Shown here: positions 1 to 20,500 of the stretch, in pieces
How the letters are laid out: each line of letters opens with the position of its first letter
How positions within the stretch are numbered: position 1 is the first letter of the stretch
From: a virus
IMG/VR virus record: IMGVR_UViG_3300005542_000007
Span: 32,001-96,000 of that record
Length of the DNA: 64,000 nt
Direction: 5' to 3' (one strand)
Notes under the pieces: generated by a model
What the model was told of the DNA's origin: nothing
What the model saw: only the letters and a program-made list of their open reading frames with translations
Database searches by the model: none
Program-made: the position numbers and the translations under genes

Positions 1-546
1 GATACAAATTTGAATATAAATGTAGCTTCAACTATCGGCTTTCCATTTGGCACATCAAGTATTGAATCAAAAGTGGCAGAAATGCAGCAAGCGTTCAATG
101 ATGGGGCCGTTGAGTTCGATGTCGTAATCAATTTGAGTGCCGTAAAAACCCACGACTGGTTGAGGGTGAAACATGAATTAGAAGCTCTACGATCAGCAGT
201 TCCAGATTTTATAAATAAATTTCATCCCACCCTTAAGATAATTTTAGAAGTGGGAATGCTTACAGATGACGAAATCAAAAAAGCATCTGAATTATGCATT
301 GAAACTAATTGCGACTTTTTGAAAACGAGCACAGGAATCAATGTAGAATTGGCACCAGCCAAGACAGCCGAGTATGTCAGAATGCTCAAAGATTTCTCAA
401 AGGGTTCTAAAATTAAGGTGAAGGCCAGCGGATATATAAAAACGCTTAGTGATTTCAACATGATGTTGGATGCAGGAGCAGATAGGATTGGAGTATCAAG
501 AACAGTGCAAATTTTAGAGGAGTTTTTAAAAGGAGAGAAACGATGA
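1..546 (+). CDS. deoC: Deoxyribose-phosphate aldolase (5'-truncated at window edge)
   Basis: Motifs IGFPFG, EFDVVIN, LKIILE, FLKTSTG (Schiff-base Lys), VKASG, GADRIG; frame is open from base 1. Confidence 0.92.
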   Translation, partial: DTNLNINVASTIGFPFGTSSIESKVAEMQQAFNDGAVEFDVVINLSAVKTHDWLRVKHELEALRSAVPDFINKFHPTLKIILEVGMLTDDEIKKASELCIETNCDFLKTSTGINVELAPAKTAEYVRMLKDFSKGSKIKVKASGYIKTLSDFNMMLDAGADRIGVSRTVQILEEFLKGEKR

Positions 547-1261: not shown

Positions 1262-1912
1262 ATGAAAAAGTTTTTATTGGGGCTTGTCGCCCTTTCTTTG
1301 TTGTTTTCTGCCTGTACGCCCCATGATGTTGCCGTTGCCAAGAGAATTTCCAAATCCACTGTTCTAGTTCACATTCGTTTAAGAAAAGGTGAAAGAACAG
1401 GCGGAGCACTTTGTAGTGGTGTTGTAGTCTCTCCCAATGAAATTCTTTTAGCGGCCCATTGCGTCAATCCCCCAGAAGGGATTTCAATAGATAAAATTTG
1501 GGTTCGTGATTTTAATGACAGGGTACAAGAAGCAACAGTAGAAAGAAAAGAACCACAGCAAGATTTGGCAATCCTCAAAGTTAAGAAGCGGGAAATACCT
1601 GCAAGAATTGGTAGTGAGGTTCGTGTAGGACAGCCTGTAATTGTTGTTGGGATGCCGCTTGGCGTTGAGTGGTGTGTCACAAAGGGAATAGTTTCTAAAA
1701 CAGATGTGAAAGTGGAGACGGTTCCTTACGCCATATTTTTCATTACAGATGCAACAGTGCTTCCAGGAAACAGTGGTGGTGGAGTTTGGAATGAACGTGG
1801 AGAGCTTGTAGGAATTGTTAGTATGAGCACTTCTATTCTTGGGGGATTTGGAGCAGCGGGATTGGGAATTATTGTTGATACTGAAACTGTAAGAGGATTT
1901 TTGGACAGATAA
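1262..1912 (+). CDS. Trypsin-like (S1/HtrA-type, no PDZ) serine protease, predicted lipoprotein
   Basis: Catalytic triad motifs LAAHC, DLAIL, PGNSGG; N-terminal MKKFLLGLVALSLLFSAC signal with lipobox-like Cys. Confidence 0.9.
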   Translation: MKKFLLGLVALSLLFSACTPHDVAVAKRISKSTVLVHIRLRKGERTGGALCSGVVVSPNEILLAAHCVNPPEGISIDKIWVRDFNDRVQEATVERKEPQQDLAILKVKKREIPARIGSEVRVGQPVIVVGMPLGVEWCVTKGIVSKTDVKVETVPYAIFFITDATVLPGNSGGGVWNERGELVGIVSMSTSILGGFGAAGLGIIVDTETVRGFLDR

Positions 1913-1919
1913 ATTAAAA

Positions 1920-4900
1920 ATGAAAAAGATTGTAGCTAATATTCTCGATTGGCCTAAGCCGTCACTTGAGCCAGCTATATGGAGTGAAGATAATACCCTG
2001 AAACCAGAGGTAAAGAAATTTATCCTCGATTTCATTTCTTCGTTTGCCCAAGCGAATAATTTTAAAGCAACAGACCAATGGATTACTGAAGTGAAGTTTG
2101 TGGGGTCTTTGACAACCAATTGTTGGAATTCCAATTCTGATATGGATATTCACATTGGGGTGGACCTTCCCAAGTTTGTTGAAGTAGAACGACCCGAGAT
2201 GTCTGATAAAGAAGCCAGTAATTACTTGGACGAGATTCGTAAACAGGTTGACCAAGTAAAAGCAAAGGTACCAGGAACAGAACATCCCACTGAAATTTAT
2301 TTTGAAACTGAATTTACAACTCATGCCAGTCAAGCATTCTCTGGTACCTATTCTGTTTTAGAAGATAAATGGTTGGTTGAGCCACATATTGTTGGGCAGG
2401 ATTTTGACATCTCCACATTACATCCAGACCTATTAAATTTAGCTAAAGAAACGGCCTCCGAGCTTGATGCTGCTTTCGGTGAAATTAAACGCGATGTGGC
2501 AGATATTAAAGAGCTTAACGAAACCATTAATGATTGGCCAGCCGAACAACGATCCCTTTTTGAGAAAAAACTCCAAAAACGATTAGAGGACCTCGAATCA
2601 GAAATTAAAGAGCTTGTTGTTATTCGTGAAGATGTAGCAGAGAAGCGCAAACATTATGATGCAGTATCGGAGCAAGAGGTCCGATTTAAGTACCTCCAGA
2701 AGTATTTTTACATGCACGTTCTCACCGACCTTAAAACCCTCCTAAAACAATCCCCCGAACTATCTGTGAAAGATATTCCAGTTGTTGAGAATATTATGCA
2801 ACAAGCTAATCTAAAACTCGCCTATCATGAAGATGAAAATAGAATCCTTGTAGATATGGATGACACTATTTGTCATGAAACTTCCGATAATGAATGTGGT
2901 GAACCAATGGAAGGAGTTAAAGAAGCCCTTACGAAGCTTAAAGAACAGGGTTTTGAGATTGTTATTTTTAGTCACCGCGCAGATGAGAAGCACGGCGAAG
3001 ATGAGATTAAAAAATATTTAGAGGTTCATGAAATTCCCTACGATTCTATATTCCAAGGGGAGAAGCCACTAGCTAAATTTTATGTAGACGACCGAGCAAT
3101 TCATTTTGATAATTGGAACAGTGTATTAAAGCAGATTGAGAAATCTGCATCCCTTCCCAACGGATACTGGATTGATCCTTCTGGAAAAAGATACCCTGTA
3201 ACTGGATTATCTGGCGGCATGTCCCACGTTGATTTTATTTATAAGCATTTTGGGGTAGGCCGAAAAGACTTCGATAAAAAAGAAAAGGAGATGTTTAAAG
3301 AGGGTTGGTCTAGAATTTCACACGACTATACAAGTGAGCAACAATTTTTTATTCAAGTTGGAAATTTAAGAAACCTACCACCGTATTTAGATGGTTTTAT
3401 CGCTGAATTTTATAAACCAAACGATCCTGTTAAAGGCATTTTAATGGAAGATGGAAAGGAATATATTACTGTAAATGATCCTTTCCCCTCTCTACAAGAA
3501 GCTGTTAACGAAGAATTGAAAAGGCCCAAAATAGAATCCTCAATCGATCTTCCAATTATCGACCCCAAGACTTTTCAACGTAAAGAACCATATGCCCTTT
3601 TCATTGGCACAGGTGATTATGGCAGTGCTGGTAAAATTGATATGTTCAATGTGTATGGCAAGCATCCCATGATTACAGAATCTAATGCCGTGCCTACAGT
3701 TACATTGGATACATTGGTTAAAGAGAATATTCCAGTGATTGGCAAGGAACCTCGTGCAGGAGATAAGCAGCCAGTGCAGGATATCTCAGGGTTGGTTAAA
3801 CAAGCTCAATTAGGCTCTAAATACGATTATTCTTCTACCCATTTTCTTCTACCAACCAATATTGCCGAAAAGATTATTAGGTGGGGAGTGGAAAATATTC
3901 CAGAGGAGGAGATTGTTCACGACCCAGATGGAACAAAGGGAATCCAAGTTGAGAGTCACGTTACGCTGAAATACGGATTGCTAACCGATGACTTTGAAGA
4001 GGTAAAGAGAGTATTGGATGGTGAAAAAGCGCCTCATATTAAATTTGGAAAGACTTCTTTCTTCGAACCAGAAGGCAAGGATTACGATGTAGTAGTTATT
4101 GAGGTTGAAAGTGAAGATTTACAGGATTTAAGCAAAAAGCTTTGCTCTCAGGTCAAATGCAATGATGAGCATGATGGATACAATCCGCATGTAACTGTTG
4201 CTTATGTGAAGAAAGGACTTGGGAAGAAGTATGAAGGTAAGGACATCATAACCGGAGAGGAAATTTATCTAGATACTTTAACCTTTTCGCCCAAGGAAGG
4301 CGAACCAAGACAATTGGAACTGAAGAATAAAGTGAAAAAAAATGCGTCCGATTATGTGCATCGAGCGTATAACCCACAAAATCCTACCGCACCAGATATA
4401 TTTATTTATAAAAATCCATCCTTAGAGAAATTTAAGCAGCTATATATTGAATCTGGTATGGGCCTTAGATACTTTATAACTAACAGCGGTGATATGTGGG
4501 TTTGGGATTCTTTAGAACTTATACATCAAGACGTAGCAGAACAATTGGGTTATGATTACAACACAGCCTTTGAAGATTTGGGACAAGTAGAAGACGACAA
4601 AACTTTTAATAAATTTATAAAATTTTATTTTTCTAAGCCACAAAAAGAATCATCCTTCATGCCAAGTAATACCGATCTAGCTCCAAGTAATGATTGGAGT
4701 GGAGATGTAGGATGGCCTGGGAATGAAGAGATGGACCCCGTATGGCCCAGAGGTGACGGAGAAAATTATTATTCGCCAATGGATGATCGTCCACGAGAGA
4801 AAAGTGTTTGGTGGAAGCTTTTAAATATGTTTAAGAAACAACAGCCAATGAGTAAGAAAGATGTTGTGCCTGTGAAAGAGGCTTCTTCCAATGTTTTTAT

Positions 4901-6755
4901 GTTAGAAACAGATTCTGGATTGCAAACCAAAGCATTAAGAGATCCCACTCCAGAACAAGCTGGAAATTTATTTAATAGTACTCGTGGAGAGGTTCACCAG
5001 CTTCGTTGGTTTATCCCAATTGATGGACACCTTTATATGTGGGATGCCTATGATTTAACCCATTGGGATGCCATAAAGCAAATAGGAATTCCAGCTACTA
5101 AATTAGCTGAAGATATAAATACTGGAGTTGCACGTACAGATCAGGAAGCCGAAATAATTGCTGAAGAATTTAAAGAATTTGGTTTTGTTAATATGAATAA
5201 ACAAGCAAAACAATGGACAACACCTAAAGAACCAGTTAACCAACCAGGAATGTCTTGGCAATGGGCTGATTATATTTACGATTACATAGCTGAAATGTGG
5301 AGAGATTTGTTGCATGACTGGCTTGGACTTGATCCAGATAATTATGTGAAACCTGTTATTTTAATCCAAGAGATTTACGAAGACGAAGGCGTTGTATCAG
5401 CCTGGGTCCATTTGGAATTCATCAATAAAGCTGGCACTTCGGATGCCTTTATGAAGTTTGTTATTTCGGCCAAGATTGAAGGTGAAGAGAATGTTGAACC
5501 AGAAGGCAGGGAATACTACGAACACTTAACGGATTGGGAAATGGAAGTGGTGGATTATGGGAAGAGTGACGAACTAGAGAAGAGTTCTAGTTATGGTCCA
5601 ACAAATTACAAAGGGCCTTCTGTAGCTGATGAACTTTACCAAGATTCCCCATATCGCATGAATGTCACGTATTCGCCCGAAGAGGATGAAGAGTTGATGG
5701 ATCAAAACGGGAAAGGTGGATACCCCAATCGCTGGATGAGTAGGCACCGTGGACCTTACTACACGAACGAAGGCAAAGTAGTAAAGATGCTTGAAGAGAC
5801 GAGCGCCCTAGAAACTTTACCAGAACAACAGCCAATGCCAGAGCAAGCTAATACTGCTGTTATGACGGATGACGGATCTATTTATTATAGTAACGATCCA
5901 TACATGATTCATGTTAAGTTGATTAGAGAATTTGGCATTCCTGTTGAAAGAATTATCAGTGGTGGACATATAGTAGATGGAGTTTATTATGATACTGGTT
6001 CTAGGTCAGATACGATGCGATACGTTGAAAGGGAACTTGCTAAAAAAAGAGTTGAACAAAAGCACAAAGCATTAGGAAGGAAAGATATTAAAGCAGACAT
6101 TTCAGGTCAAGTAATTAACAATATTTTGAAGCTCATCCAACAAACTGGCGGAGCTACGTACAATTTAAGCAAAGGAAATCTCGTCGGAACAAATGCTTTT
6201 GCTGTGGCTATTTATCCTGACCGAGAGCAGATAGTTGAGGGCATTGATTTTGATACGTTGGAAGGATACGTTGCACAGAACGAAGATTTGCTTTCTAATT
6301 CCAATAATTCTTTTGGTGCGTGGGTTTCAAATGGGAAAGTATATCTGGATGTGGTTGCTACCGTACCAACGAAAGAACAAGCGATGGAGTTGGGTTACAG
6401 GCATAAGCAGCTTGCAATCTTTGACCTCAAGAATTTAGTTGAGATTCCATTGCAGAGAGTGGCAAAATTAGCTGCTGCTGTAAGCGATAAAGAGCAACAG
6501 GCATACTATGATAAAATATTTTCAGATAGGTGGCGCGATTCATCCGATCCCATAGATGGCGGTAATGAATACAACAAGGGTTGGAGTGAACTTAATGGCA
6601 ATGATTTTCCAGGGCCAAAAGATTTGGATAAAGAAAGAGCATTGCTTGACCAACTTGAAAAGCCTGTTAATCGTAATAATCCGGTTGGTTTGGGTGAATA
6701 TGCAATCACTTATTATGATGCTTTTCCCGACCAGGGTGACCAGGGCGGTATCTAA
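1920..6755 (+). CDS. Multidomain polyprotein (nucleotidyltransferase + HAD phosphatase + 2H phosphoesterase + small unknown domains), putative internal head protein
   Basis: GSLT..SDMDIH Pol-beta NTase motif (~2100-2155); DMDDT HAD motif I (2853) and YVDDRA motif IV; HVTL (3957) and HVTV (4188) 2H motifs; domains separated by K-x-A/S linkers. Confidence 0.8.
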   Translation: MKKIVANILDWPKPSLEPAIWSEDNTLKPEVKKFILDFISSFAQANNFKATDQWITEVKFVGSLTTNCWNSNSDMDIHIGVDLPKFVEVERPEMSDKEASNYLDEIRKQVDQVKAKVPGTEHPTEIYFETEFTTHASQAFSGTYSVLEDKWLVEPHIVGQDFDISTLHPDLLNLAKETASELDAAFGEIKRDVADIKELNETINDWPAEQRSLFEKKLQKRLEDLESEIKELVVIREDVAEKRKHYDAVSEQEVRFKYLQKYFYMHVLTDLKTLLKQSPELSVKDIPVVENIMQQANLKLAYHEDENRILVDMDDTICHETSDNECGEPMEGVKEALTKLKEQGFEIVIFSHRADEKHGEDEIKKYLEVHEIPYDSIFQGEKPLAKFYVDDRAIHFDNWNSVLKQIEKSASLPNGYWIDPSGKRYPVTGLSGGMSHVDFIYKHFGVGRKDFDKKEKEMFKEGWSRISHDYTSEQQFFIQVGNLRNLPPYLDGFIAEFYKPNDPVKGILMEDGKEYITVNDPFPSLQEAVNEELKRPKIESSIDLPIIDPKTFQRKEPYALFIGTGDYGSAGKIDMFNVYGKHPMITESNAVPTVTLDTLVKENIPVIGKEPRAGDKQPVQDISGLVKQAQLGSKYDYSSTHFLLPTNIAEKIIRWGVENIPEEEIVHDPDGTKGIQVESHVTLKYGLLTDDFEEVKRVLDGEKAPHIKFGKTSFFEPEGKDYDVVVIEVESEDLQDLSKKLCSQVKCNDEHDGYNPHVTVAYVKKGLGKKYEGKDIITGEEIYLDTLTFSPKEGEPRQLELKNKVKKNASDYVHRAYNPQNPTAPDIFIYKNPSLEKFKQLYIESGMGLRYFITNSGDMWVWDSLELIHQDVAEQLGYDYNTAFEDLGQVEDDKTFNKFIKFYFSKPQKESSFMPSNTDLAPSNDWSGDVGWPGNEEMDPVWPRGDGENYYSPMDDRPREKSVWWKLLNMFKKQQPMSKKDVVPVKEASSNVFMLETDSGLQTKALRDPTPEQAGNLFNSTRGEVHQLRWFIPIDGHLYMWDAYDLTHWDAIKQIGIPATKLAEDINTGVARTDQEAEIIAEEFKEFGFVNMNKQAKQWTTPKEPVNQPGMSWQWADYIYDYIAEMWRDLLHDWLGLDPDNYVKPVILIQEIYEDEGVVSAWVHLEFINKAGTSDAFMKFVISAKIEGEENVEPEGREYYEHLTDWEMEVVDYGKSDELEKSSSYGPTNYKGPSVADELYQDSPYRMNVTYSPEEDEELMDQNGKGGYPNRWMSRHRGPYYTNEGKVVKMLEETSALETLPEQQPMPEQANTAVMTDDGSIYYSNDPYMIHVKLIREFGIPVERIISGGHIVDGVYYDTGSRSDTMRYVERELAKKRVEQKHKALGRKDIKADISGQVINNILKLIQQTGGATYNLSKGNLVGTNAFAVAIYPDREQIVEGIDFDTLEGYVAQNEDLLSNSNNSFGAWVSNGKVYLDVVATVPTKEQAMELGYRHKQLAIFDLKNLVEIPLQRVAKLAAAVSDKEQQAYYDKIFSDRWRDSSDPIDGGNEYNKGWSELNGNDFPGPKDLDKERALLDQLEKPVNRNNPVGLGEYAITYYDAFPDQGDQGGI

Positions 6756-8035: not shown

Positions 8036-8908
8036 ATGAAACATGCACACAACTTTGTTGATTTAACAGGACAAGTATTTAACTTACTTACAGTTATTAA
8101 ATATCTTTATACTAAAAATAAAAAGGCCCATTGGCTTTGCAAATGTGCATGTGGAGATTCAAAATACGTTATTGCTTGTACACAGACCCTCAAGGAGAAT
8201 CGTACCAAATCTTGTGGTTGTTGGAAACAGGAGTCTTTCCGCAAAAGATCCACAACTCATGGTTTTAAATCCTCCGGCATATTTGAAAGCAATTTTTATG
8301 ATTTGTGGGGCGGTATGAAGGCGCGTTGTTTTAATCCCAATCATAAATCTTATCCCGACTATGGCGGTCGCGGAATAACTGTTTGCGATAGGTGGCTAAA
8401 ATTTGAAAACTTTCGAGATGATATGTGGAAAGAGTATTTACAAAGACGACAAGCTGGTGAAATTATTTCTCTGGATCGTCTTGAAGTAATGGGAAACTAC
8501 AAACTCTCTAATTGTAAATGGGCCACGGATATAGAGCAGGGTAAAAATACAAGAGCCTACGCGCAGTCAGAAAATCATAAAGAGCATGTTTATTGGAAAA
8601 ACTACATTGGCTCTTCTCTCAGCAGGTTGATTGCCCACCGCTGTAAAAGATCTAAAGTTATTGAGCCTTACTTAGGCTGTTCATTTTTAGAATTTAAACA
8701 ACACATTGATAGCCAGTTTCAACCAGGAATGTCCTGGGATAATTATGGCCGGGGTGTTGGAAAGTGGGAAATCGACCATATTTTAGGTTGTAACAATTTC
8801 GATCTTTCCAAAGAAATAGATCGTTTAAAATGTTTTAACTACACAAATCTCCGACCTTTTTGGAGTAGTGCAAATAGGCAAAAGAGTAGAATTTTAGTAT
8901 CTCGTTAG
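8036..8908 (+). CDS. Free-standing HNH homing endonuclease (two nuclease-like modules)
   Basis: N-terminal DLTGQ.F..L..WLCKC.CG..KSCGC..YGGRGI.VCDRW..F.NF..DM module; C-terminal LGCS..F.PGMSWDNYG..WEIDHI..NYTNLRP HNH module. Confidence 0.85.
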   Translation: MKHAHNFVDLTGQVFNLLTVIKYLYTKNKKAHWLCKCACGDSKYVIACTQTLKENRTKSCGCWKQESFRKRSTTHGFKSSGIFESNFYDLWGGMKARCFNPNHKSYPDYGGRGITVCDRWLKFENFRDDMWKEYLQRRQAGEIISLDRLEVMGNYKLSNCKWATDIEQGKNTRAYAQSENHKEHVYWKNYIGSSLSRLIAHRCKRSKVIEPYLGCSFLEFKQHIDSQFQPGMSWDNYGRGVGKWEIDHILGCNNFDLSKEIDRLKCFNYTNLRPFWSSANRQKSRILVSR

Positions 8909-12991: not shown

Positions 12992-14620
12992 ATGTATGAT
13001 TTCTCTACTTTAGTTTCGTCCAATTATGACGAAGCCAAAATCACCAATTTATCTAAAGCTGCCTATGACCCTAGCTTTTGGGCTTTACAAAATTTGGGTG
13101 TAGACCTTTACGACAACCAAGTGGATATCATTGAAGCTTCCTGTGATATCGGTGTTAAATATCTGGCTATCCTTTGTGCTCGTGGTACTGGGAAGTCTCA
13201 CGCAGTAGCGGTGGCTATCGTTAAACTTTGTTTGGATTATCCAGGTCTTGCCGTAGGTATATTTGCCCCAAAAGAAGAACAGGCCAATCGCATTATTAAA
13301 GAAGAACTTATTGGGCACCTCCTTCTTCCATCCTCTCCTTGTTACAATTTTATTGACTGGAGCAACACGTCCCATTCCCACGTTCGTTTTAAGAATGGGT
13401 CAGACGTTTTAGCTCTTTCAGCTTCAGAACAAAGTCAGCAGGAAGGATATCACTTTTCAGTTGTAATTGTAGACGAAGCCCATGCCGTAAGCGACGCAAG
13501 TATTGCTACTCGTATTTCAGGAATGCTTGGGTCGTTTAAAATCTCTAAGCTCATTAAACTTGGAGTGGCAGTGGGCAGAAACCATTTTTGGAAAAGCTGT
13601 GCCGCTCCTAATACCGCTTTCAAAGTTATCGTAAAAGATTGGACACAGTGCCCAATTCTTCTTAATCAGGGTTCTCTCACTTATCAGGGAATGGAACTTC
13701 CAAAAGAAGTAATTGATAAGATGCCCATCACTTTGAAAAAGCAATATTTTCCTGATAGGCCTGACCTTCATTATGATTCTGTTGTAGGCATGACGGAATT
13801 GGATTTTAATTCCCACTATGCGATGATTTGGGAAAATGATGCCAATTTGGTTCTTAATGAAGAGAATCAAATTAGATTGGTTTCTGGAGATTTTGAACCA
13901 CTTGAGAGAGCTAATAAAGCAAGGATGGATAAGTACTTCTTTGGACTTGATACAGCATCGGGCTCAATCCTTCCAGGTAGGAAGGACCGAGATTTTAACA
14001 ACTTGGCTATTTGGCGTAAGACCCACGATAATATCTGTCAGAAAGTGGCTGTGTTTGAGTGGCAGGATGTTCCACCTTCAGATTTGATGGAAGATATAAA
14101 AGCAATCATTCATCCAGAAACTGGTTTGTTCCCTTGCGTATTTGGACTGGCCGACTTCAGTAATATTGCGATTAGTATGGTGGATTTTTTTAAGAAAGAG
14201 AAGATTCCAATAGACGGAATCCAGTACCAAGCTACTGAACCAACAACTCATAAAAATTATAAAAACGCGATGTTCGATCAGTTTGTATTTGAACTTGAAT
14301 GTGGAAGGGTGCAATATCCGAAGCTTGAGAAATTTCAGCAGGATAGAGTTTTCAATAAATCCTACCAGGAATGGTGTTTTATTGAGAGGCATCAGAAGCA
14401 AGGAATCAATGCAATTATTGAAGCGCCCTCTGCGGATTTTCACGATGATGCTCCTAACGCAGATGTTCTCGCAGTGTGGGCGGCAACACGAGTAGAAAAT
14501 TACCAAGGAACTTTTGCAACTCGTCCAATGATACAACCTTTGAGCGGTCCTGGTTCTATAGCGTCCCGAGGAATCCCAAATCCCGCAGACACCACTTTGA
14601 AAAGTAGGTTTTTGAAATGA
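12992..14620 (+). CDS. terL: Terminase large subunit
   Basis: Walker A ARGTGKS, Walker B VVIVDEAH, RNase H-like FFGLDTA and HDDAPNAD; immediately upstream of portal. Confidence 0.93.
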   Translation: MYDFSTLVSSNYDEAKITNLSKAAYDPSFWALQNLGVDLYDNQVDIIEASCDIGVKYLAILCARGTGKSHAVAVAIVKLCLDYPGLAVGIFAPKEEQANRIIKEELIGHLLLPSSPCYNFIDWSNTSHSHVRFKNGSDVLALSASEQSQQEGYHFSVVIVDEAHAVSDASIATRISGMLGSFKISKLIKLGVAVGRNHFWKSCAAPNTAFKVIVKDWTQCPILLNQGSLTYQGMELPKEVIDKMPITLKKQYFPDRPDLHYDSVVGMTELDFNSHYAMIWENDANLVLNEENQIRLVSGDFEPLERANKARMDKYFFGLDTASGSILPGRKDRDFNNLAIWRKTHDNICQKVAVFEWQDVPPSDLMEDIKAIIHPETGLFPCVFGLADFSNIAISMVDFFKKEKIPIDGIQYQATEPTTHKNYKNAMFDQFVFELECGRVQYPKLEKFQQDRVFNKSYQEWCFIERHQKQGINAIIEAPSADFHDDAPNADVLAVWAATRVENYQGTFATRPMIQPLSGPGSIASRGIPNPADTTLKSRFLK

Positions 14621-14841
14621 GAAAAGAACGAGCATTGAGCGAATCAAAAAACTATCTAATTTCTGTACATGATACTCTTCGAAAAGTTTTTAGAGATGCT
14701 GCTCCAGAGGAACAAGTATTTATTACTGCTGCTTTAGAAGGCATAGAGAAAGATGTAAAACAATTAGAAATGTTAGAGGATATGATGAAGGTTTGGAAGG
14801 CAACTAAAGGAAAGAATCTAGAAACGATAACAGAGGAATAA
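14617..14841 (+). CDS. Hypothetical protein
   Basis: ATGA overlap with terL stop; 74 aa helical. Confidence 0.6.
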   Translation: MRKERALSESKNYLISVHDTLRKVFRDAAPEEQVFITAALEGIEKDVKQLEMLEDMMKVWKATKGKNLETITEE

Positions 14842-14845
14842 AATT

Positions 14846-16567
14846 ATGGGACGACCCAAGGGCTCAAAAAATATTACTAAAAGCGCTGAACAAGTAAAAG
14901 CACCCGTATCTATTGTTACAGGTGAAGGAATTACTGGCTCCACCACTTCTTTTGGTGTAGATGCAGGATTGATGAAAATTGGTTCTTTGAATAAGCAAGC
15001 CAATTATGGTGTATCACAAACTTCTTCATTTTTCTACAGTCCAGAATTAACCACAGAATCATGGCTCCTTCCTAAGTCCCGCCAAGAAACTTGCCGCTGG
15101 GCTCGTGTATTCTACAATTTAAATCCTATTGTGCATAGCGTTATTAACATGCATTCGAAGTATCCTTTTTCCAAATTTGAGCTTGTTTGTGGAGACCCAA
15201 CGGTAAAACAATTTTACGAGCAAATGTCATTTAATAAAAATTTCAATTTGTACGATTTTATGTTACAAGCTTCCCTTTCCTACGAAAAATTTGGTGAGGC
15301 CCTTTGCTTTGGTACGATGGAGAAAAAGGGTGACAAGGTTCAATGGACCAAGTTCGTTCTTCTTGAGCCAGAACTCATTGATGTAAAGTCGGATATGATG
15401 AGCGGAAAGCAAACCTTTGAGATGGTTCCAACATCTGAACTCAAACAACTTGTTACTTCCACTCGTCCTGAAGATTCTGAGGCTCAAAAGCAACTGGAAG
15501 AGTGGTCCCCAGAAATTGTAAAAGCCATTAAGGAAAATAGAAACATTCGTCTTTCAGATGAAAATGTTTCTATTATTGCAAATCTTACTGATCCTTCAGC
15601 CACTCGTGGGACAAGTCGTATTCAGTGTCTATTTAAAGATTTGATTCTAAATGACTTCATTCGTTTGGCGCAGATGGCGTATGCTCAACGTTATGTATTT
15701 CCAGTTGAAATGTGGTCCATTGGAGATATTGCAAACAACATCATTCCAAGCACGACCGATTTACAGAACTGGAAACAGCTTATCAATCAGTCTATTCAAC
15801 AGCCTCCATTTTCACTTGTTACACCTCCATATGTTAAGTATGAAGCTTTGAGTACAGCAGGAAAAACATTCCCGGTAAACACAGAATGGTATGAGTATAC
15901 GCTCAGCCAATTGATGATTGGGTTAGGTGTAAACAAGAATTTGATGACTGGTGATGGACCTTCATTCAGTGCAGGACTTAAAGGAATGTCCCTTCACCGT
16001 TTAATGATGGAATATAAAGCGGTTAGAGACAAATTTGAAGATTGGATTATTCATAAATTCTTTGAACCAATCGCAGAAAAGAACCAATTTTATACAGTTG
16101 AAAATGGAATGAAGAAGCTTATTCTTCCAGAACTTTCTTGGAAGAAATCCCTCGACATTGAAGATGCTGAAGCAGAACGCGAAATGTTCGTAAAAATGTG
16201 GGAAGCCGGAGTTATCAGCACGGAAACTCTCTTCACGAAATTCCCCACTCTTGACTTCAAGACGGAACAGAAGAAATTGGAACTTGAGCGTGGAACTATT
16301 TTTGATAAGGGTGATGGTGCTAGGTTGCCTGAGAAAATTCACAAGTCAGTTGTTAAGCCAGGAGGCGATACTGGATTTGGTGGAAAAGGCGGTGGCGGAG
16401 CAGCCCCAGGCGCTGTGAAACCAATAAAGCCAGTAAAACCCACCAAACCTGGAGAAGTTCCTGAAGGTGGAGAGCCAGCAGCCCCAGGCGCACCTGAAGG
16501 TGCTGCCCCAGCAGGTGGTGAAGCTCCAGCAGCAGCCGTTACACCAGCAACACCGACAGTGGAGTAA
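14846..16567 (+). CDS. Portal protein
   Basis: Synteny after terL; R.FY..NPIV..VI...SKYP, YEKFGEA, RGTSRI motifs; Gly/Pro/Ala-rich disordered C-tail. Confidence 0.88.
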   Translation: MGRPKGSKNITKSAEQVKAPVSIVTGEGITGSTTSFGVDAGLMKIGSLNKQANYGVSQTSSFFYSPELTTESWLLPKSRQETCRWARVFYNLNPIVHSVINMHSKYPFSKFELVCGDPTVKQFYEQMSFNKNFNLYDFMLQASLSYEKFGEALCFGTMEKKGDKVQWTKFVLLEPELIDVKSDMMSGKQTFEMVPTSELKQLVTSTRPEDSEAQKQLEEWSPEIVKAIKENRNIRLSDENVSIIANLTDPSATRGTSRIQCLFKDLILNDFIRLAQMAYAQRYVFPVEMWSIGDIANNIIPSTTDLQNWKQLINQSIQQPPFSLVTPPYVKYEALSTAGKTFPVNTEWYEYTLSQLMIGLGVNKNLMTGDGPSFSAGLKGMSLHRLMMEYKAVRDKFEDWIIHKFFEPIAEKNQFYTVENGMKKLILPELSWKKSLDIEDAEAEREMFVKMWEAGVISTETLFTKFPTLDFKTEQKKLELERGTIFDKGDGARLPEKIHKSVVKPGGDTGFGGKGGGGAAPGAVKPIKPVKPTKPGEVPEGGEPAAPGAPEGAAPAGGEAPAAAVTPATPTVE

Positions 16568-16569
16568 AC

Positions 16570-16812
16570 ATGGCACTCAATAAAACAGGCAGTCCAACCA
16601 AACTTACAGTTTTAAAGCAGAGCGCATTTGAGGTGGATTTAAACGTTCTAGCAAGTGTAATTTCTGACAAATACCCAGAAAAGAAACTCTCTATAAACGA
16701 TCTTCACGAAGTTCTTAAAACGCTTGGAGTTACTGATTACAAAGCCGAGGATATGCAGGAACTTGCTGGAAGGTTACATGCAGTAGGAATTACTGTTATA
16801 GGAAACGTCTAA
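16570..16812 (+). CDS. Hypothetical head-module protein
   Basis: GGAG RBS; N-terminus MALNKTG resembles protease N-terminus MALTKRG. Confidence 0.6.
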   Translation: MALNKTGSPTKLTVLKQSAFEVDLNVLASVISDKYPEKKLSINDLHEVLKTLGVTDYKAEDMQELAGRLHAVGITVIGNV

Positions 16813-16815
16813 AAC

Positions 16816-16851
16816 CCCTTAAAAATATAATAAATTGTGGTATTATTAGGG
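16816..16851 (+). promoter_or_regulatory. Conserved 36-bp intergenic element, copy 2
   Basis: CCCTTAAAAATATAATAAATTGTGGTATTATTAGGG, identical to copy at 44420. Confidence 0.7.
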
Positions 16852-16904
16852 GATATTGTCCCTAGGTAATTTTAAAACAAAGGAAAGAATAGATAGGAGA
16901 ATTT

Positions 16905-17168
16905 ATGCCAAACGAGAAACCAAGAAAAGAGATAAATTTCATCACTATTGATGAACATGGAAATGAGCATTTGAATCTGCATATTTTTATTGAAAGCTTG
17001 CTTACATTATCAATGGGCACAGCCCTAGATATGGGACGTTTGGCTATTCAGCACAAAGAAGCATTTGAACAATTTCAGCGAACTGTGAAAGACGATTCAT
17101 ACGACCGTATTGAATTTGCACACAAAATTTTAAAGAAGTATGGTTACGAAGACAACACTAGGATTTAA
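16905..17168 (+). CDS. Hypothetical protein
   Basis: AGGAG RBS, 87 aa. Confidence 0.6.
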   Translation: MPNEKPRKEINFITIDEHGNEHLNLHIFIESLLTLSMGTALDMGRLAIQHKEAFEQFQRTVKDDSYDRIEFAHKILKKYGYEDNTRI

Positions 17169-17171
17169 AAA

Positions 17172-17510: not shown

Positions 17511-20500
17511 ATGGCATTGACAAAACGTGGAACCATTTTAAGGATTACTAAGACTGCTGCATCTGCAACGGAGCTTCTTATTGACCGCCCTCTAATAGAA
17601 GAGACAAAAGTGGTTGAGGGAAAAAATCCTGAGTTTCTATACTTTGTTGCCAAAGCAATTGCAGCAGGGGATGAAGGTCCGATTGATAAAAATGGTTCTA
17701 GAGAGCCTAACTACAACGGAAATGCCGACTACTTCCCTAAGAAAGAAATTGAAGGCGCATATCAAACATTTATTGGCAAAGGTATTTACCTCGACCACAA
17801 CGCATCCAGCGTTATGTATTCTGTTGGTAAGATTATCGATGCTTTTCCCACGGTAGACCCAGATAATAAAGAGTGGAGCATTTCTTGTCTCGCCAAGATT
17901 GATAGAAAGCTCCATCCAGAAATTGCTCGTAAAGTAGAGACGGGTGAACTAAACACCGTTTCTATGGGTTGTTCTTGCGGTGAATCAAAGTGTTCTGTTT
18001 GTGGAACAGTCCTTAGAACTGACGATGATCCAAAATGCGCTCACCTTTCTCCTGGGAAATTGATGCATGATTTTGAAGCAGAGATTGACCTTCCAGAGTT
18101 TGGAATTCATAAGGGGCAGACCGTAAAGAGTTTTGCTATTAACTCTGAAATTAATTTTAATGAGCTTTCGCTTGTCGGCGTTCCTGCATGGCCACGAGCA
18201 TTTGTCACAACAATTTTAAGTAATCTTAAGAATACAATTAGTAAACAAGCTTCTCTTACGAAAGAGGAGCAACTCGATTTAGTAGCGCAGTTTGAAAAGC
18301 TTGTGGACACTTTAGATGCGAACACAAAAGAACAGGTCAAAGCCGAATTTTGCGGTTGCCCAATTGTTAAGGAGAACAACATGTCCGATACCCCCCAGAA
18401 ACAATCGAACGACGAAGTAACAGATTTATTGAAGAAAGTGAGTGCTTATGAGATGGAGAAGCTTGAGAATTATATCCAACATAAGACACGCAAAGCAGAA
18501 GCGACCGCTGCTGCTGATACAAAGACCAATGATTCCAATTGGATGAACGGCATCCTTGAGAAAGCAAAAAATACGGCTGCTGGGAAGGTATTTGCAAGAA
18601 CGATTCAGCGATTGGCTGAAGAGGAAAAAGTAACAAAAAAGGCAGATACCGATCCTGATAAATGTGCAATTTGTGAAAAAAAGCTTGGCGACAATGATGA
18701 TTATATATGTGCCAAATGCAAAGTTGAAGATGAAAAGAAAGATAAAAAATCATCCCTCACAGCTACATTTACAGTAAACAAAGCAGAACCAATGAAATCT
18801 TCTTGGACTCTCCTAGACGGTAATGACAAAGTTATTTTAGATGCTTCACTCCATGAGATTTGGGGAGACCAGTTTGAAGCAAATCAAGATTTTGCAATCA
18901 GTGAAGAATATGGCAGAGCAATTGCCGCACGATTTTTAGATCCTAAACTTGGAGGCGTTGAGAAACTTGCCGACCTTTGGGATGTTTCTTATAAATTAAA
19001 TAAAGAGGCTATTATGGACAAAACATCCGAACACGGCGAATTTTTCAAAGCTAAAGATTTCTTTGTACCTGGAAGTGATTCTTCTAATAAATACACTCCA
19101 GAGGAGATTAAACATATGCAAGAAAAAGAACACACAGAAGCGAAGGGTAAAAAGGTTGAGGCTGGGCATATTGACGAAAAATTTGATATTACGGAAGGTA
19201 AGGGCAAACTCTTTGATGCAAAGAATTTCTTTGAGCCCGGATCAGATTCCTCAAATAAGTGGAATGATAAACGAGTTAAAATTGAATACAATATTAAGTT
19301 CCCTGGGCAAGAGGAAGGTCAAAAAGGTCCAGCCGCTCCCAAGAGCAAAGATGTAAAGACAGAATACAATATTCCAGGTAAGGCTCCAGAGGCTGGTCAA
19401 AAAGGCCCTGCGGCCCCTAAGCACGAAGATGTTAAAACAACCTATGATTTTAAAAAGCCAGAAGGCGAGTTCGTTAATACAAATAAGAAAACCAAACTTG
19501 ACGAAGAACATGCTAAGTCGGAAGAGAAAGTCAAAACTGGTTACAAAGGCGATTTGATGTATGATGAAGAGAAAAAGTCCGAGAAAAAGGCTGCTAAAAC
19601 TGTAGGGGACGCTCCCGAAGGCGCAGTGGCAGAAAGCCAATATCCCAAGAAAGATGCCAAAACTTCTGGTGATGAACCAGATTCTTCTTATAATAAAACA
19701 GCAAAAACCGTTGGCGATGCTCCTGAAGGTTCTGTTGAAGAGAGCCAATATCCAAAAGCCTCCGAACCAAATAAAGATCCCGAAGCTTCAGTTGCTGAAA
19801 ACAATATGCCAAAGGGCACACCAAATCTAACAAAAACACCTGATAGTTCAGTTCAGGAAAAGATGCCAGCACCCGCTAAATCGGATAAAGATCCTGAAAC
19901 ATCCGTAAAGGATACAGAATTTAAAAAGCATCCAGACCTCACAAGTAAGCCTGAAACTTCTTCTAAGGAAGACCAGTATCCTACTCCAGCCAATCCAGAT
20001 AAGGACCCAGATTCTTCAGTACAAAAAGGTTCTAATCTTAAAGTTGCCAAAACCCCGGAAGGTTGGGAACATGCTGTTCGTGAAATGAAGAAAGAAAAGG
20101 ATATTGATAATCCTTGGGCAGTGGCGAACTGGATGAAAAATAAAGGTTATACGCCTCATAAGAAATCTGAGCTTGATTTGAAAGCCGATTCTGAGATGTG
20201 TGAGAAATGTTCCATGCCGCTACATGAATGTGCTTGCATGGCCGCTCAGGAAGACATGGGCCCAGCAATGGATGCTCCCAAGCCGGAAGTTGGCTCAGCT
20301 TTTGACAAGGTTGAAGACAAACTTACTATTGGTGATGGGTACGATGCTTCTAAGGACAAAGAAACCAAAGAGATAGTTATTTCCAAAGATGGCAAGGAAA
20401 TGAAGCGTCTTCCAGATGGTTTTGGTGCTGATGTTGCTTCTGTTACAAGTCTTCTAAAAGCCGTTCTTGGTCTTCCTGCAACGGAAGAGAAAAAAGATGA

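What the first reader, a model, noticed from the sequence alone, without database searches (positions are those of the whole stretch)
1920..4350. Nucleotidyltransferase + HAD phosphatase + 2H phosphoesterase in one polyprotein: injected counter-defence or RNA-repair kit
Seen: Pol-beta-type GS..SDMD motif, HAD DMDDT/YVDD motifs and paired HxT motifs (SHVTLKYG, YNPHVTVAY), each bounded by K-x-A linkers. Known: T4 Acb1 (gp57B) is a 2H phosphoesterase that destroys CBASS cyclic nucleotides; 2H cyclic phosphodiesterases and HAD 3'-phosphatases heal RNA ends after anticodon nuclease attack. Inference: enzymes delivered with the genome could act before phage gene expression, by degrading immune signals, repairing tRNA ends or nucleotidylating a host target.
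Basis: partly seen in the sequence, partly recalled or inferred. Interest (0 to 1): 0.8.

Follow-up and report, generated by a model that had tools for sequence, protein, structure and literature searches.

The report
Phage head-cargo polyprotein with K-x-A joints
A 142-kb uncultured phage strings a nucleotidyltransferase, a small phosphatase and an Acb1-like 2H phosphoesterase (plus about nine unknown modules) into one 1,611-residue protein. The joints carry the same Lys-x-Ala tag that marks its capsid, portal and head-protease proteins, so the chain is probably cut up inside the capsid and delivered with the DNA; this is a tidy, widespread variant of the known 'polyvalent' phage effector proteins.

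Summary
Window 1920-6755 (+) is one 1,611-aa ORF. Its first 809 residues hold five modules:
- a Pol-beta-type nucleotidyltransferase (aa 1-301)
- a cap-less HAD phosphatase (aa 302-410)
- two unknown modules (aa 411-629)
- a 2H phosphoesterase (aa 630-809)

All catalytic motifs are intact and conserved in relatives.

The K-x-A linkers are real. Whole-module insertions and deletions against a 74%-identical relative start and end at them. In distant relatives, 53% of 294 module boundaries carry K-x-A, against 9% of random positions. The pentapeptide [IV]-T-K-[ST]-A lies within the first 16 residues of the portal, prohead protease and major capsid protein, and at only one other place in the genome's ORFs.

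The NTase module heads a large family of 900-4,000-aa phage proteins, about 30 of which share the NTase-HAD-2H core. Cutting by the prohead protease, packaging, ejection and counter-defence activity are all inferred, not shown.

By sequence profile, the nearest solved 2H relative is the Acb1-type PDE-9. There is no ligase or kinase, so classical RNA repair is less likely.

The kind is known (polyvalent proteins, Iyer 2017; multidomain phage 2H PDEs, Doherty 2025). The scan has already noted K-x-A cargo polyproteins and this same family on other DNA. I class it as a new variant of a known kind.

The parts
1920..6755 (+). 1,611-aa modular polyprotein (P0001), about 12 modules
   Evidence: Single ORF. 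A 74%-identical 1,789-aa relative exists in IMG/VR. Module architecture in 57 large relatives.
1920..2822 (+). Module 1, aa 1-301: Pol-beta-type nucleotidyltransferase core (aa ~29-160) plus a helical bundle (aa 164-300)
   Evidence: G62-S63, D74-x-D76, H122 and E125 are conserved. AF2 pLDDT is 92.2. The Foldseek top hits down to rank 30 are all Pol-beta NTases, but weak (E about 5e-3). Pfam MTPAP-like_central hits 17 of 39 family members and NTP_transf_2 hits 14 of 39. 1,190 representative clusters match at E<=1e-3.
2814..2822 (+). Junction K299-L-A301, followed by Y302
   Evidence: Conserved in P0002. K-x-A follows the NTase module in many relatives of 35-40% identity.
2823..3149 (+). Module 2, aa 302-410: minimal cap-less HAD phosphatase (D312, D314, T316, S351, K382, D390, D391)
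   Evidence: PHROG 1238 E 4e-24. TIGR01689 E 7e-14, below its cut-off, plus HAD-IIIC/IIIA. Profile against PDB: 1xpj 1.2e-11, 2obb 2.7e-4, 9iqw 6.4e-4, Pnkp1 0.013.
3141..3149 (+). Junction K408-S-A410, followed by S411
   Evidence: Conserved in P0002. Relatives carry K-[TKIAN]-A-S at the same place.
3150..3539 (+). Module 3, aa 411-540: 'WIDPxGK' module of unknown function. It is the most often repeated module in the family.
   Evidence: 1 copy here, 3 in P0002, up to 9 in relatives. A paralogue lies in the 1,479-aa protein upstream. No Pfam, NCBIfam or Atlas match.
3540..3806 (+). Module 4, aa 541-629: unknown. It ends in junction K627-Q-A629, followed by Q630.
   Evidence: Found in 9 relatives, often just before the 2H module. 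Junction motif shown.
3807..4346 (+). Module 5, aa 630-809: 2H phosphoesterase (H680-V-T682, H757-V-T759). It ends in junction K807-N-A809.
   Evidence: Pfam PF13563 E 7.8e-10. AF2 pLDDT 91.7, with only the linker ends disordered. Foldseek PDB: drCPDase, LigT, Usb1, cGAMP PDE and Acb1, E 3e-6 to 1e-4. Profile against PDB: Acb1-type 9q2g at 4.3e-7. Stand-alone homologues of 165-192 aa begin and end where the module does.
4347..6755 (+). Modules 6-12, aa 810-1611: two paralogous small domains, a low-complexity module, two unknown modules, a PHROG 17808 module, and a C-terminal module that is terminal in 21 relatives
   Evidence: No enzyme family detected.
1262..1912 (+). Trypsin-like serine peptidase with a lipoprotein-type signal peptide, 7 nt upstream of the polyprotein
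   Evidence: Trypsin_2 E 2.4e-25. N-terminus MKKFLLGLVALSLLFSAC. The same gene order and a signal peptide occur in L001 and L005.
14846..16567 (+). Portal protein with N-I-T-K-S-A at aa 9-14
   Evidence: PHROG 16240 E 1.2e-38. Motif.
17511..21089 (+). Prohead protease fused to a long scaffold-like tail. It has R-I-T-K-T-A at aa 11-16, K-Q-A-S just after the protease domain, and 32 K-x-[AS] sites in all.
   Evidence: PHROG 18299 E 2.5e-15. Sequence. Counts.
21861..22829 (+). Major capsid protein beginning M-S-E-Q-V-T-K-T-A-S
   Evidence: PHROG 2522 E 1.5e-35. Sequence. Motif.

Best explanation
The ORF encodes a modular head-cargo ('polyvalent') polyprotein. It is made late, with the head genes, and is taken into the procapsid. 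There the phage's prohead protease most likely cuts it at the K-x-A/S joints, the same tag that the protease appears to remove from the portal, from itself and from the major capsid protein.

The freed enzymes would then travel in the capsid and enter the cell with the DNA, before any phage gene is expressed. Among them, the 2H phosphoesterase most likely hydrolyses cyclic-oligonucleotide immune messengers, as Acb1 and PDE-9 do. Its products end in a 2',3'-cyclic or 3'-phosphate. The cap-less HAD phosphatase most likely removes such terminal phosphates. The Pol-beta nucleotidyltransferase acts on a 3'-OH of a nucleotide or RNA, or on a protein hydroxyl; its substrate is unknown.

Shown: the domain identities, the intact active sites, the modularity, the placement and conservation of the motif, the head-gene neighbourhood, and the recurrent NTase-HAD-2H core.

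Inferred: cleavage, the enzyme that cuts, packaging, ejection, and every substrate.
For: Domains.

Modularity and joints:
- The three large indels between P0001 and its 74%-identical relative are whole modules bounded by KNA/KES, IKA/KQA and KLA/KVA.
- In relatives below 60% identity, 53% of 294 module boundaries have K-x-A within -10/+6 residues, against 9% of random positions. The controls R-x-A, E-x-A, K-x-G and K-x-L are flat.
- Within P0001, 9 of 14 K-x-[AS] sites are at junctions and only 5 are inside modules, where about 13 are expected.
- Stand-alone 2H proteins start and stop where the module does.
- The 2H model is disordered only at the linker ends.

Link to the head protease:
- [IVL]TK[ST]A occurs 4 times in 45,191 residues of this genome. 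Three of these are in the first 16 residues of the portal, protease and MCP.
- The scaffold-like tail of the protease protein is rich in the motif.
- Phage G is the nearest cultured relative (MCP and TerL about 29% identical). It has K-Q-A and K-T-A near the N-termini of its portal and protease.

Head context: trypsin-like gene, polyprotein, 387-aa gene, second giant, TerL, portal, protease, MCP, all on the + strand. The same order occurs in a relative whose NTase module is 38% identical.

Family:
- The NTase module is the N-terminal module of many 900-4,000-aa proteins. NTase, HAD and 2H co-occur in about 30 of 57 large members.
- One member carries ART-PolyVal, the signature domain of polyvalent proteins.

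Literature:
- Phage polyvalent proteins carry 2H domains that were predicted to degrade nucleotide signals (PMC5512222).
- Acb1 does so (PMC9117128).
- 13 of 75 phage 2H PDEs are multidomain, some with HAD domains (bioRxiv 10.1101/2025.08.21.671373).
Against: - There are no proteomic, expression or enzymatic data for this phage or any close relative.
- There is no embedded peptidase, and no N-terminal capsid-targeting peptide of the T4 kind. How the chain would be recruited to the procapsid is unknown.
- The prohead protease family could not be placed by Pfam or PDB sequence search, so its specificity is only inferred from motif sharing.
- Module boundaries in P0001 were partly drawn at the motif itself, so the within-protein statistics are not fully independent. 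The indel and distant-relative tests are independent.
- Two junctions (aa 540 and aa 1392) lack a canonical K-x-A.
- The phage G MCP has no K-x-A at all.
- The 2H fold does not discriminate Acb1 from LigT/CPDase/Usb1. Pfam Acb1 is below threshold for this protein (19.4 against 27). Doherty et al. show that substrate range cannot be read from the 2H fold.
- Stand-alone homologues of the NTase and the 2H in Maribacter phages sit among non-structural genes and are not adjacent. The enzymes therefore do not need packaging to work.
Confidence: 0.55

Rival explanations
1. Ligase-independent RNA 3'-end repair kit. The 2H module opens 2',3'-cyclic phosphate ends left by host defence RNases. The HAD module removes the remaining 2'- or 3'-phosphate. 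The NTase rebuilds or tails the 3' end, for example the CCA of a tRNA. The E. coli CCA-adding enzyme with its phosphohydrolase domain does something similar, as does the TUT1/Usb1 pair on U6 snRNA.
For: - The NTase-HAD-2H trio recurs in about 30 large relatives, and in different orders, which suggests one pathway.
- The NTase family's best Pfam matches are the palm domains of RNA-tailing enzymes (MTPAP-like_central in 17 of 39 members).
- The top 2H fold matches are RNA 2',3'-cyclic phosphodiesterases: drCPDase, LigT and Usb1. TIGR02258 matches at E 8e-6.
- The HAD module has weak matches to polynucleotide kinase-phosphatase families (PHROG 415 E 2.8e-6; Gordonia phage PNK; Pnkp1 E 0.013).
- Single family members carry RNA_ligase and cREC_REC (cyclic-phosphate processing) domains.
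Against: - No kinase or ligase is present in this protein.
- TIGR02258 is far below its cut-off (25.8 against 65.7).
- By sequence profile the 2H module is closer to Acb1-type enzymes than to LigT.
- The HAD module's best relatives are small EcbF/BT0820-like phosphatases of unknown substrate.
- Iyer et al. found that polyvalent-type 2H domains do not associate with RNA ligases (PMC5512222).
- I know of no host defence that damages only tRNA 3' ends in the likely hosts.
Confidence: 0.2
2. The protein is not capsid cargo. It is a cytoplasmic multi-enzyme protein or polyprotein. The K-x-A joints are flexible linkers, or sites for another protease: the adjacent trypsin-like enzyme, the phage's ClpP-like protein, or a host protease. 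The enzymes act late in infection, on nucleotide pools or RNA.
For: - A trypsin-like peptidase gene lies 7 nt upstream, and the pairing is conserved in a distant relative with overlapping stop and start codons.
- Stand-alone homologues of the NTase and 2H in Maribacter phages lie among non-structural genes.
- No capsid-targeting signal was identified.
Against: - The trypsin-like protein carries a lipoprotein-type signal peptide in all three phages examined, so it should be exported from the cytoplasm.
- The motif is shared with the extreme N-termini of the portal, protease and MCP, which is the hallmark of prohead-protease processing.
- The gene sits inside the head-morphogenesis block.
Confidence: 0.15
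3. The protein is packaged but stays uncut. It would be a giant internal head or ejection protein whose enzyme domains stay tethered, with K-x-A being a conserved linker feature rather than a cleavage site.
For: - Many polyvalent proteins are thought to be transferred whole (PMC5512222).
- The extreme C-terminal module is conserved in 21 relatives and could be an anchor.
- No cleavage has been observed.
Against: - The motif is depleted inside modules (5 seen, about 13 expected).
- The motif sits where propeptides are usually removed from the MCP, portal and protease.
- Module gain and loss exactly at the motif fits independent, separable units.
Confidence: 0.1

Closest known systems
Polyvalent proteins of phages and conjugative elements (Iyer, Burroughs, Anand, de Souza, Aravind 2017, PMC5512222)
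   Same: - One polypeptide carries several unrelated effector enzymes.
- It is encoded beside portal, terminase and head genes.
- It includes a 2H phosphoesterase that the authors predicted would destroy nucleotide immune signals.
- It is presumed to be packaged and injected with the DNA.
- One family member found here carries their ART-PolyVal domain.
   Different: - There is no embedded peptidase. Release seems to depend on the prohead protease acting in trans at a short K-x-A code.
[quoted passage not shown] Here a 300-aa NTase with a helical bundle is the constant N-terminal module.
- HAD phosphatases were not listed in that survey.
T4 internal proteins IPI-III and Alt with the capsid-targeting sequence (cut by gp21 at L/I-x-E), and the phiKZ/SPN3US inner-body and ejection proteins (cut by gp175/gp245 at S/A/G-x-E or A-x-E; PMC10052503)
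   Same: - A three-residue cleavage code is shared by capsid, portal, protease and internal cargo proteins.
- The cargo is ejected into the host.
- At least one T4 cargo protein is a counter-defence factor.
   Different: - The motif differs (K-x-A/S, apparently cut after the small residue).
- There are many cuts per chain, releasing whole enzymes, rather than removal of one N-terminal propeptide.
- There is no N-terminal targeting peptide.
- The protease is of a phage-G-like lineage that Pfam does not place.
Acb1 / viral 2H phosphodiesterases (Hobbs 2022, PMC9117128; Doherty 2025, bioRxiv 10.1101/2025.08.21.671373; PDB 7t26, 9q2g)
   Same: - The 2H fold with both H-x-T motifs.
- The nearest solved sequence relative of the family profile is PDE-9 of Burkholderia phage BCSR5 (E 4.3e-7), followed by FBB1 Acb1 (6e-4).
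- Some relatives pass the Pfam Acb1 threshold.
- Doherty et al. report 2H PDEs fused to HAD and other domains.
   Different: - This module scores below the Pfam Acb1 cut-off (19.4 against 27).
- By fold it is as close to LigT, drCPDase and Usb1 (TM 0.5-0.66).
- It is one module of a 1,611-aa chain, not a free early protein of about 150 aa.
- Its substrates are untested.
T4 Pnkp / Pnkp1-type RNA end-healing phosphatases and LigT/ThpR RNA 2',3'-cyclic phosphodiesterases
   Same: A HAD-type cap-less phosphatase and a 2H enzyme are the two chemistries that heal 2',3'-cyclic phosphate RNA ends.
   Different: - There is no kinase or ligase partner.
- The HAD module's best relatives are 1xpj, BT0820 and EcbF-like.
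- TIGR02258 is below its cut-off.

Membership tests
2H phosphoesterase superfamily | Two H-x-[TS] motifs on the two lobes of the fold | tested here: met
   H680-V-T682 and H757-V-T759 are invariant in 15 homologues.
2H phosphoesterase superfamily | The 2H fold, and a Pfam PF13563 score above the gathering threshold | tested here: met
   PF13563 scores 39.4 bits against a threshold of 27. The AF2 model has pLDDT 91.7. Foldseek matches 5h7e, 1iuh and LigT at E 3e-6 to 1e-5, with probability 1.00.
Acb1 (PF23474, anti-CBASS nuclease) | A Pfam Acb1 score above the gathering threshold | tested here: not met
   The score is 19.4 bits against a threshold of 27. Some relatives do pass, and the family profile hits the Acb1-type 9q2g at E 4.3e-7.
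Acb1 (PF23474, anti-CBASS nuclease) | Hydrolysis of 3'3'-cGAMP or cyclic tri-nucleotides, and rescue of phage from CBASS | not testable with these tools
   This needs an enzyme assay and infection assays.
LigT/ThpR RNA 2',3'-cyclic phosphodiesterase (TIGR02258) | A score above the equivalog cut-off | tested here: not met
   The score is 25.8 bits against 65.7.
HAD phosphatase superfamily | Motifs I (DxDxT), II (S/T), III (K) and IV (DD) | tested here: met
   D312, D314, T316, S351, K382, D390 and D391. Motifs I, III and IV are invariant in four modules of 39-88% identity. PHROG 1238 matches at E 4e-24 and 1xpj at E 1.2e-11.
Polynucleotide 3'-phosphatase (T4 Pnkp / Pnkp1 type) | Specific sequence relationship to the Pnkp phosphatase domain, and a kinase partner | tested here: inconclusive
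   PHROG 415 matches at E 2.8e-6 and Pnkp1 4xrp at E 0.013. No kinase domain was found. The closer relatives are EcbF/BT0820-like.
Pol-beta nucleotidyltransferase superfamily | An hG[GS] motif, a [DE]h[DE]h motif, and a third carboxylate on the next strand | tested here: met
   G62-S63, D74-M-D76 and E125 (with H122). D74 and D76 are invariant, G62, S63 and H122 are nearly invariant in 39 homologues, and E125 is nearly invariant in the 25 large relatives.
Pol-beta nucleotidyltransferase superfamily | Family-model or fold match | tested here: inconclusive
   - This protein is below the Pfam cut-offs (NTP_transf_2 17.5 against 21; MTPAP-like 19.5 against 27).
- Even so, 17 and 14 of 39 family members hit these models, best E 3.8e-6.
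- The Foldseek hits down to rank 30 are all NTases, but at E of 5e-3 or weaker.
- The VIA searches were filled by the helical bundle.
- ESM Atlas neighbours carry NTP_transf_2.
Polyvalent proteins (Iyer 2017) | Two or more unrelated effector domains in one polypeptide of a phage, encoded with the portal and terminase genes | tested here: met
   Three enzyme domains plus about nine other modules. TerL, portal, protease and MCP lie within 20 kb downstream on the same strand.
Polyvalent proteins (Iyer 2017) | An embedded peptidase (MPTase or similar) for self-processing | tested here: not met
   No peptidase family was detected in the 1,611 aa. This feature is frequent in the class but not obligatory.
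Polyvalent proteins (Iyer 2017) | Packaged in the capsid and transferred with the DNA | not testable with these tools
   This needs virion proteomics.
T4-type CTS cargo (IPI-III, Alt) | A short N-terminal targeting peptide that ends in the protease site | tested here: not met
   The first K-x-[AS] of the protein is at aa 97-99, inside the NTase fold. The N-terminus is part of the conserved module.

The most novel reading that the evidence does not exclude
The NTase-HAD-2H core is a conserved three-enzyme pathway, delivered ready-made from the capsid by a large, so far undescribed lineage of phage-G-like phages. In it, 2H cleavage, dephosphorylation and nucleotidyl transfer act in sequence on one class of substrate, either immune cyclic oligonucleotides or damaged RNA 3' ends. 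The K-x-A code of the prohead protease acts as a general, evolvable 'cargo cassette' system: any module placed between two tags is loaded, cut free and injected.
Probability: 0.2. Interest if true: 0.8.

Novelty: new variant of a known kind. Interest (0 to 1): 0.55.

Why it matters
If the reading holds, it gives a simple, readable code (K-x-A) that marks which proteins a whole lineage of large uncultured phages loads into the capsid and injects. That would turn hundreds of giant ORFs of 900-4,000 aa into catalogues of candidate first-minute counter-defence enzymes.

It would also add a new, widespread Pol-beta nucleotidyltransferase family of unknown substrate. The NTase module has about 1,190 representative clusters. 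It is repeatedly joined to phosphatases (HAD, PAP2), kinases, cytidylyltransferases and 2H enzymes.

Finally, it would show that Acb1-like enzymes can be pre-packaged rather than expressed early. That matters for how fast CBASS or type III CRISPR signalling can be quenched.

Maribacter phages Molly and Colly carry stand-alone homologues of the NTase and the 2H enzyme, and so offer a culturable handle.

Tried and rejected
- **DNA search.** Megablast of the ORF against 50,697 phage records found nothing. Only protein-level matches to single modules exist.
- **Finer classification of the NTase core.** The VIA-align searches (pdb_via_wide and pdb_via) were filled by four-helix-bundle matches to residues 167-301 and say nothing about the core. 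A sequence profile against the PDB gave only E 0.013 to a minimal NTase.
- **Trypsin-like peptidase as the processing enzyme.** I rejected it as the first choice, because it has a lipoprotein signal peptide in three phages.
- **Plain over-representation of K-x-[AS] in the protein.** It is not over-represented: 14 seen against 13.6 expected. Only its placement is non-random.
- **NTase-2H gene adjacency in a cultured phage.** Colly1_26, next to the NTase homologue, is not a 2H protein (hhalign probability 0.3). The Molly/Colly 2H gene lies about 19 kb away.
- **Neighbourhood of a stand-alone NTase (P0059).** It gave only a 2.6-kb contig without informative genes.
- **Published cleavage motif of the phage G protease.** The structure paper (PMC7316594) is not held. 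The other phage G papers give no cleavage data.
- **Family of the prohead protease.** No Pfam or PDB sequence match.
- **The WIDP module.** No ESM Atlas hit.
- **Promoter and terminator scan.** It gave no signal above the shuffled controls.
Full report
**Setting.** The window is bases 32,001-96,000 of a single 141,877-bp virus contig. It has about 40% G+C, and nearly all genes lie on the + strand. The finding lies in one ORF, window 1920-6755 (+), of 1,611 aa (P0001).

The surrounding genes, in order, are:
- upstream, two more giant ORFs of 1,003 and 1,479 aa, which end just before the window
- a DeoC-like gene
- a trypsin-like peptidase (1262-1912)
- the polyprotein
- a 387-aa gene
- an HNH endonuclease (8036-8908)
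- a 1,177-aa ORF
- the large terminase (12992-14620)
- the portal (14846-16567)
- a 1,192-aa protein with an N-terminal head-maturation protease domain (17511-21089)
- the major capsid protein (21861-22829)

The gene therefore sits inside the head-morphogenesis block. The nearest cultured relative for both the MCP and TerL is Bacillus phage G, at about 29% identity.

*NTase, aa 1-301.*
- The motif G62-S63...D74-M-D76 is followed by H122-P-x-E125.
- In an alignment of 39 homologues of 21-85% identity, D74 and D76 are invariant, and G62, S63 and H122 nearly so. E125 is nearly invariant in the 25 large relatives.
- AlphaFold2 with that alignment gives pLDDT 92.2. The model has an alpha/beta core (aa ~29-160) followed by a long helical bundle (aa 164-300).
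- The Foldseek PDB hits down to rank 30 are all Pol-beta-superfamily enzymes (CdnE CD-NTases, aminoglycoside nucleotidyltransferases, LinB, MNT). They are weak (E of 5e-3 or more, TM about 0.2) because the helical part differs.
- When every family member is scanned, 17 of 39 hit Pfam MTPAP-like_central (the palm of non-canonical poly(A)/U polymerases) and 14 of 39 hit NTP_transf_2. The protein itself is below both cut-offs.

*HAD, aa 302-410.*
- Motifs I-IV are intact: D312, D314, T316, S351, K382, D390 and D391.
- PHROG 1238 matches at E 4e-24.
- NCBIfam places it with the small cap-less class III phosphatases (TIGR01689 at E 7e-14, below its cut-off, plus HAD-IIIC/IIIA and BT0820).
- A four-sequence profile finds 1xpj (1.2e-11), 2obb/BT0820 (2.7e-4) and a capsule-biosynthesis protein (6.4e-4). 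The RNA-repair phosphatase Pnkp1 appears only marginally (0.013).

*2H, aa 630-809.*
- H680-V-T682 and H757-V-T759 are invariant in 15 homologues.
- Pfam 2_5_RNA_ligase2 matches at E 7.8e-10, above threshold. Pfam Acb1 scores 19.4 bits, below its threshold of 27.
- The model has pLDDT 91.7, with disorder only at residues 1-3 and 177-181, which are the linkers.
- Foldseek PDB gives D. radiodurans CPDase, TT0787, E. coli LigT, Usb1, poxvirus cGAMP PDE and Acb1, all at E 3e-6 to 1e-4 and TM 0.5-0.66.
- The family's sequence profile is nearest to the Acb1-type PDE-9 of Burkholderia phage BCSR5 (9q2g, E 4.3e-7). Next come FBB1 Acb1 (6e-4) and YjcG (2e-3). LigT is not reached.

*The remaining span.* Residues 411-629 hold two further modules with no match in Pfam, NCBIfam or PHROG. 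An ESM Atlas search of the first (aa 411-540) also found nothing.

**The K-x-A joints.** Their placement does.

- *Indels.* IMG/VR holds one relative, a 1,789-aa ORF that is 74% identical. The three large differences between the two proteins are whole modules. A 102-residue module is present only here, between K-N-A and K-E-S. Modules of 138 and 131 residues are present only in the relative, between I-K-A and K-Q-A and between K-L-A and K-V-A.
- *Placement within the protein.* Nine of the 14 sites lie at module junctions and only 5 inside modules, where about 13 are expected. Part of this is circular, because I drew some boundaries at the motif.
- *An independent test.* The NTase module alone finds 1,190 representative clusters at E<=1e-3 among 1.84 billion proteins, 276 of them at E<=1e-10. 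Most of the best hits are proteins of 900-4,000 aa in which the module occupies residues 1-300. I mapped the twelve modules of P0001 on the 150 best hits and projected the module ends onto relatives below 60% identity. K-x-A lies within -10/+6 residues of 53% of 294 boundaries, against 9% of random positions in the same proteins. The controls R-x-A, E-x-A, K-x-G and K-x-L show no enrichment.
- *Typical joints in relatives.* Examples are V-K-Q-A|Q, E-K-K-A|Q, N-K-K-E-A|S, D-K-T-A|S and I-K-E-A|F.
- *Stand-alone 2H proteins.* Those of 165-192 aa begin and end exactly where the module does.

**Which protease.** Two candidates exist.

*The trypsin-like peptidase.* It lies 7 nt upstream, and the pairing recurs in a relative whose NTase module is only 38% identical, with overlapping stop and start codons. 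However, in all three phages examined it begins with a lipoprotein-type signal peptide, for example M-K-K-F-L-L-G-L-V-A-L-S-L-L-F-S-A-C. It should therefore leave the cytoplasm.

*The prohead protease.* It is the better candidate.
- The pentapeptide [IVL]-T-K-[ST]-A occurs four times in the 45,191 residues of all ORFs of this genome. Three of the four are within the first 16 residues of the portal (N-I-T-K-S-A), the protease (R-I-T-K-T-A) and the major capsid protein (M-S-E-Q-V-T-K-T-A-S).
- A K-Q-A-S follows the protease domain, and the long scaffold-like tail of that protein holds 32 K-x-[AS] sites.
- Phage G has K-Q-A at aa 18-20 of its portal and K-T-A at aa 43-45 of its protease gp19, though none in its MCP.
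- A short code shared by capsid, portal, protease and internal proteins is how T4 gp21 (L/I-x-E) and phiKZ/SPN3US gp175/gp245 (A-x-E) substrates are recognised (PMC10052503).

The inference that the polyprotein is cut in the procapsid is therefore well founded. It remains an inference. The protease family itself could not be placed.

**The family and its core.** Among 57 relatives of 800 aa or more, about 30 hold NTase, HAD and 2H together. They usually come in that order, with NTase first. They are interspersed with one to nine copies of the unknown 'WIDPxGK' module and other small modules, and often end in the same C-terminal module. More distant proteins have the trio in other orders (HAD-2H-NTase; NTase-2H).

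Other members carry LMW phosphatase, cREC_REC, RNA ligase, DNA ligase, LigD PrimPol and ART-PolyVal domains. ART-PolyVal is the signature domain of the 'polyvalent proteins' of Iyer et al. 2017 (PMC5512222). That paper already described 2H domains in phage polyvalent proteins. It noted that they do not associate with RNA ligases, and it predicted that they degrade nucleotide signals of host defence. It found Pol-beta NTases only in conjugative-element polyvalent proteins, and it did not list HAD phosphatases. Doherty et al. 2025 (bioRxiv 10.1101/2025.08.21.671373) found 75 phage 2H phosphodiesterases. Thirteen of them were multidomain, some with HAD-superfamily domains, and the authors showed that substrate range varies widely within the fold.

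By shape, the NTase module also occurs in viral ESM Atlas clusters, where it is fused to cytidylyltransferase-like, PAP2 phosphatase and AAA_33/zeta-toxin-type kinase domains. In Maribacter phage Colly_1 it is a free 265-aa protein among small non-structural genes, next to a NUDIX gene. The same phages have a free 2H gene about 19 kb away. The module is thus an enzyme in its own right, tied to phosphoester and nucleotide chemistry, and not a structural anchor.

**Mechanism.** My best reading, at about 0.55 for the whole chain of inference, runs as follows:
1. The protein is made with the head genes and enters the procapsid. How it is recruited is unknown; the conserved C-terminal module is a candidate.
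2. The prohead protease cuts it after K-x-A/S into free enzymes.
3. These leave with the DNA at infection.

For the individual enzymes:
- *2H.* It most likely opens cyclic oligonucleotide messengers, as Acb1 and PDE-9 do. Those enzymes give linear products ending in a 2',3'-cyclic phosphate.
- *HAD.* A cap-less HAD has an open active site suited to large or polymeric substrates. This is general knowledge of the superfamily, not tested here. It could remove the terminal phosphates.
- *NTase.* Its substrate is open. Options are an RNA or oligonucleotide 3'-OH (favoured by the PAP/TUTase-like palm matches), a nucleotide, or a protein hydroxyl.

The main rival (0.2) uses the same three chemistries for ligase-free repair of RNA 3' ends. 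It fits the conserved trio and the CPDase/LigT/Usb1 fold matches. It lacks a kinase or ligase, a specific Pnkp relationship, and a known matching host weapon. Lesser rivals are a cytoplasmic, non-packaged polyprotein (0.15) and a packaged but uncut giant (0.1).

**Novelty and verdict.** The kind is known:
- head-packaged multi-enzyme 'polyvalent' proteins
- protease-coded head cargo
- Acb1-like 2H enzymes, including multidomain ones

The scan has also met it before on other DNA: K-x-A or K/R-x-A cargo polyproteins (e1-5662030, e1-5366632), and this very family in another genome (e1-5790531, e1-5790541).

What is new here:
- the size and coherence of the family
- the constant N-terminal 300-aa NTase of unknown substrate
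- the recurrent NTase-HAD-2H core
- the clean evidence that module gain and loss happen at the protease tag, with release in trans rather than by an embedded peptidase

I class it as a new variant of a known kind, with interest 0.55. Nothing about activity, cleavage or packaging has been measured.

Noticed in passing
window 1262-1912 (+); L001:7115-7987; L005:4018-4791: A trypsin-like (Trypsin_2) peptidase with a lipoprotein-type signal peptide lies directly upstream of the giant gene in three phages. One of them has an NTase module only 38% identical, and there the stop and start codons overlap. An exported protease conserved next to a presumed capsid cargo gene is unexplained. Possible roles are superinfection exclusion, envelope remodelling, or a part in lysis.
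   Followed up: partly
window 8036-8908 (+): An HNH endonuclease gene (PHROG 374, E 1.9e-51) sits between the 387-aa gene and the 1,177-aa giant. The 74%-identical relative has no ORF of 120 aa or more in the 29-nt gap at the same place (L001:13469-14632 is followed by 14662-18561). This looks like a homing-endonuclease insertion polymorphism.
   Followed up: partly
window 3150-3539 (+), aa 411-540 of the polyprotein; also aa 1278-1398 of the 1,479-aa ORF that ends 209 nt before the window: The 'G-Y-W-I-D-P-x-G-K ... G-W-x-R-I' module of about 130 aa is the most amplified unit of the family. There is 1 copy here, 3 in the close relative, and up to 9 in a 2,525-aa relative. It has no match in Pfam, NCBIfam, PHROG or the ESM Atlas.
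   Followed up: partly
window 14846-16567, 17511-21089, 21861-22829: The portal, prohead protease and major capsid protein all carry [IV]-T-K-[ST]-A within their first 16 residues. The only other occurrence in the genome is in a minus-strand ORF at window 101591-102232. Phage G has K-Q-A and K-T-A near the N-termini of its portal and protease gp19.
   Followed up: yes
window 23148-23222 (+): A single tRNA-Met (CAT) gene lies between the major capsid gene and the next structural gene.
   Followed up: no
P0025 (L005:4791-12746), P0036 (L003:6335-13912) and other relatives: Family members swap in other enzyme modules between the same tags: LMW phosphotyrosine-type phosphatase, cREC_REC, RNA ligase, ATP-dependent DNA ligase, LigD PrimPol, ART-PolyVal and DUF5662. 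The largest relative listed is 3,973 aa.
   Followed up: partly
Maribacter phage Colly_1 MT732450.1, 13207-14004 (Colly1_25); Molly_1 MT732451.1, about 119121-119417: The cultured flavobacterial phages Molly and Colly encode free-standing homologues of the NTase module (27% identity) and of the 2H module (32% identity). They are not adjacent, and the NTase lies next to a NUDIX gene. These are possible experimental stand-ins.
   Followed up: partly
window 1-546 (+) (the ORF starts 167 nt before the window): A DeoC/LacD-family aldolase-like gene (PF01791, E 1.2e-8) lies between the upstream giants and the trypsin-like gene. This is an odd neighbour in a head gene block.
   Followed up: no
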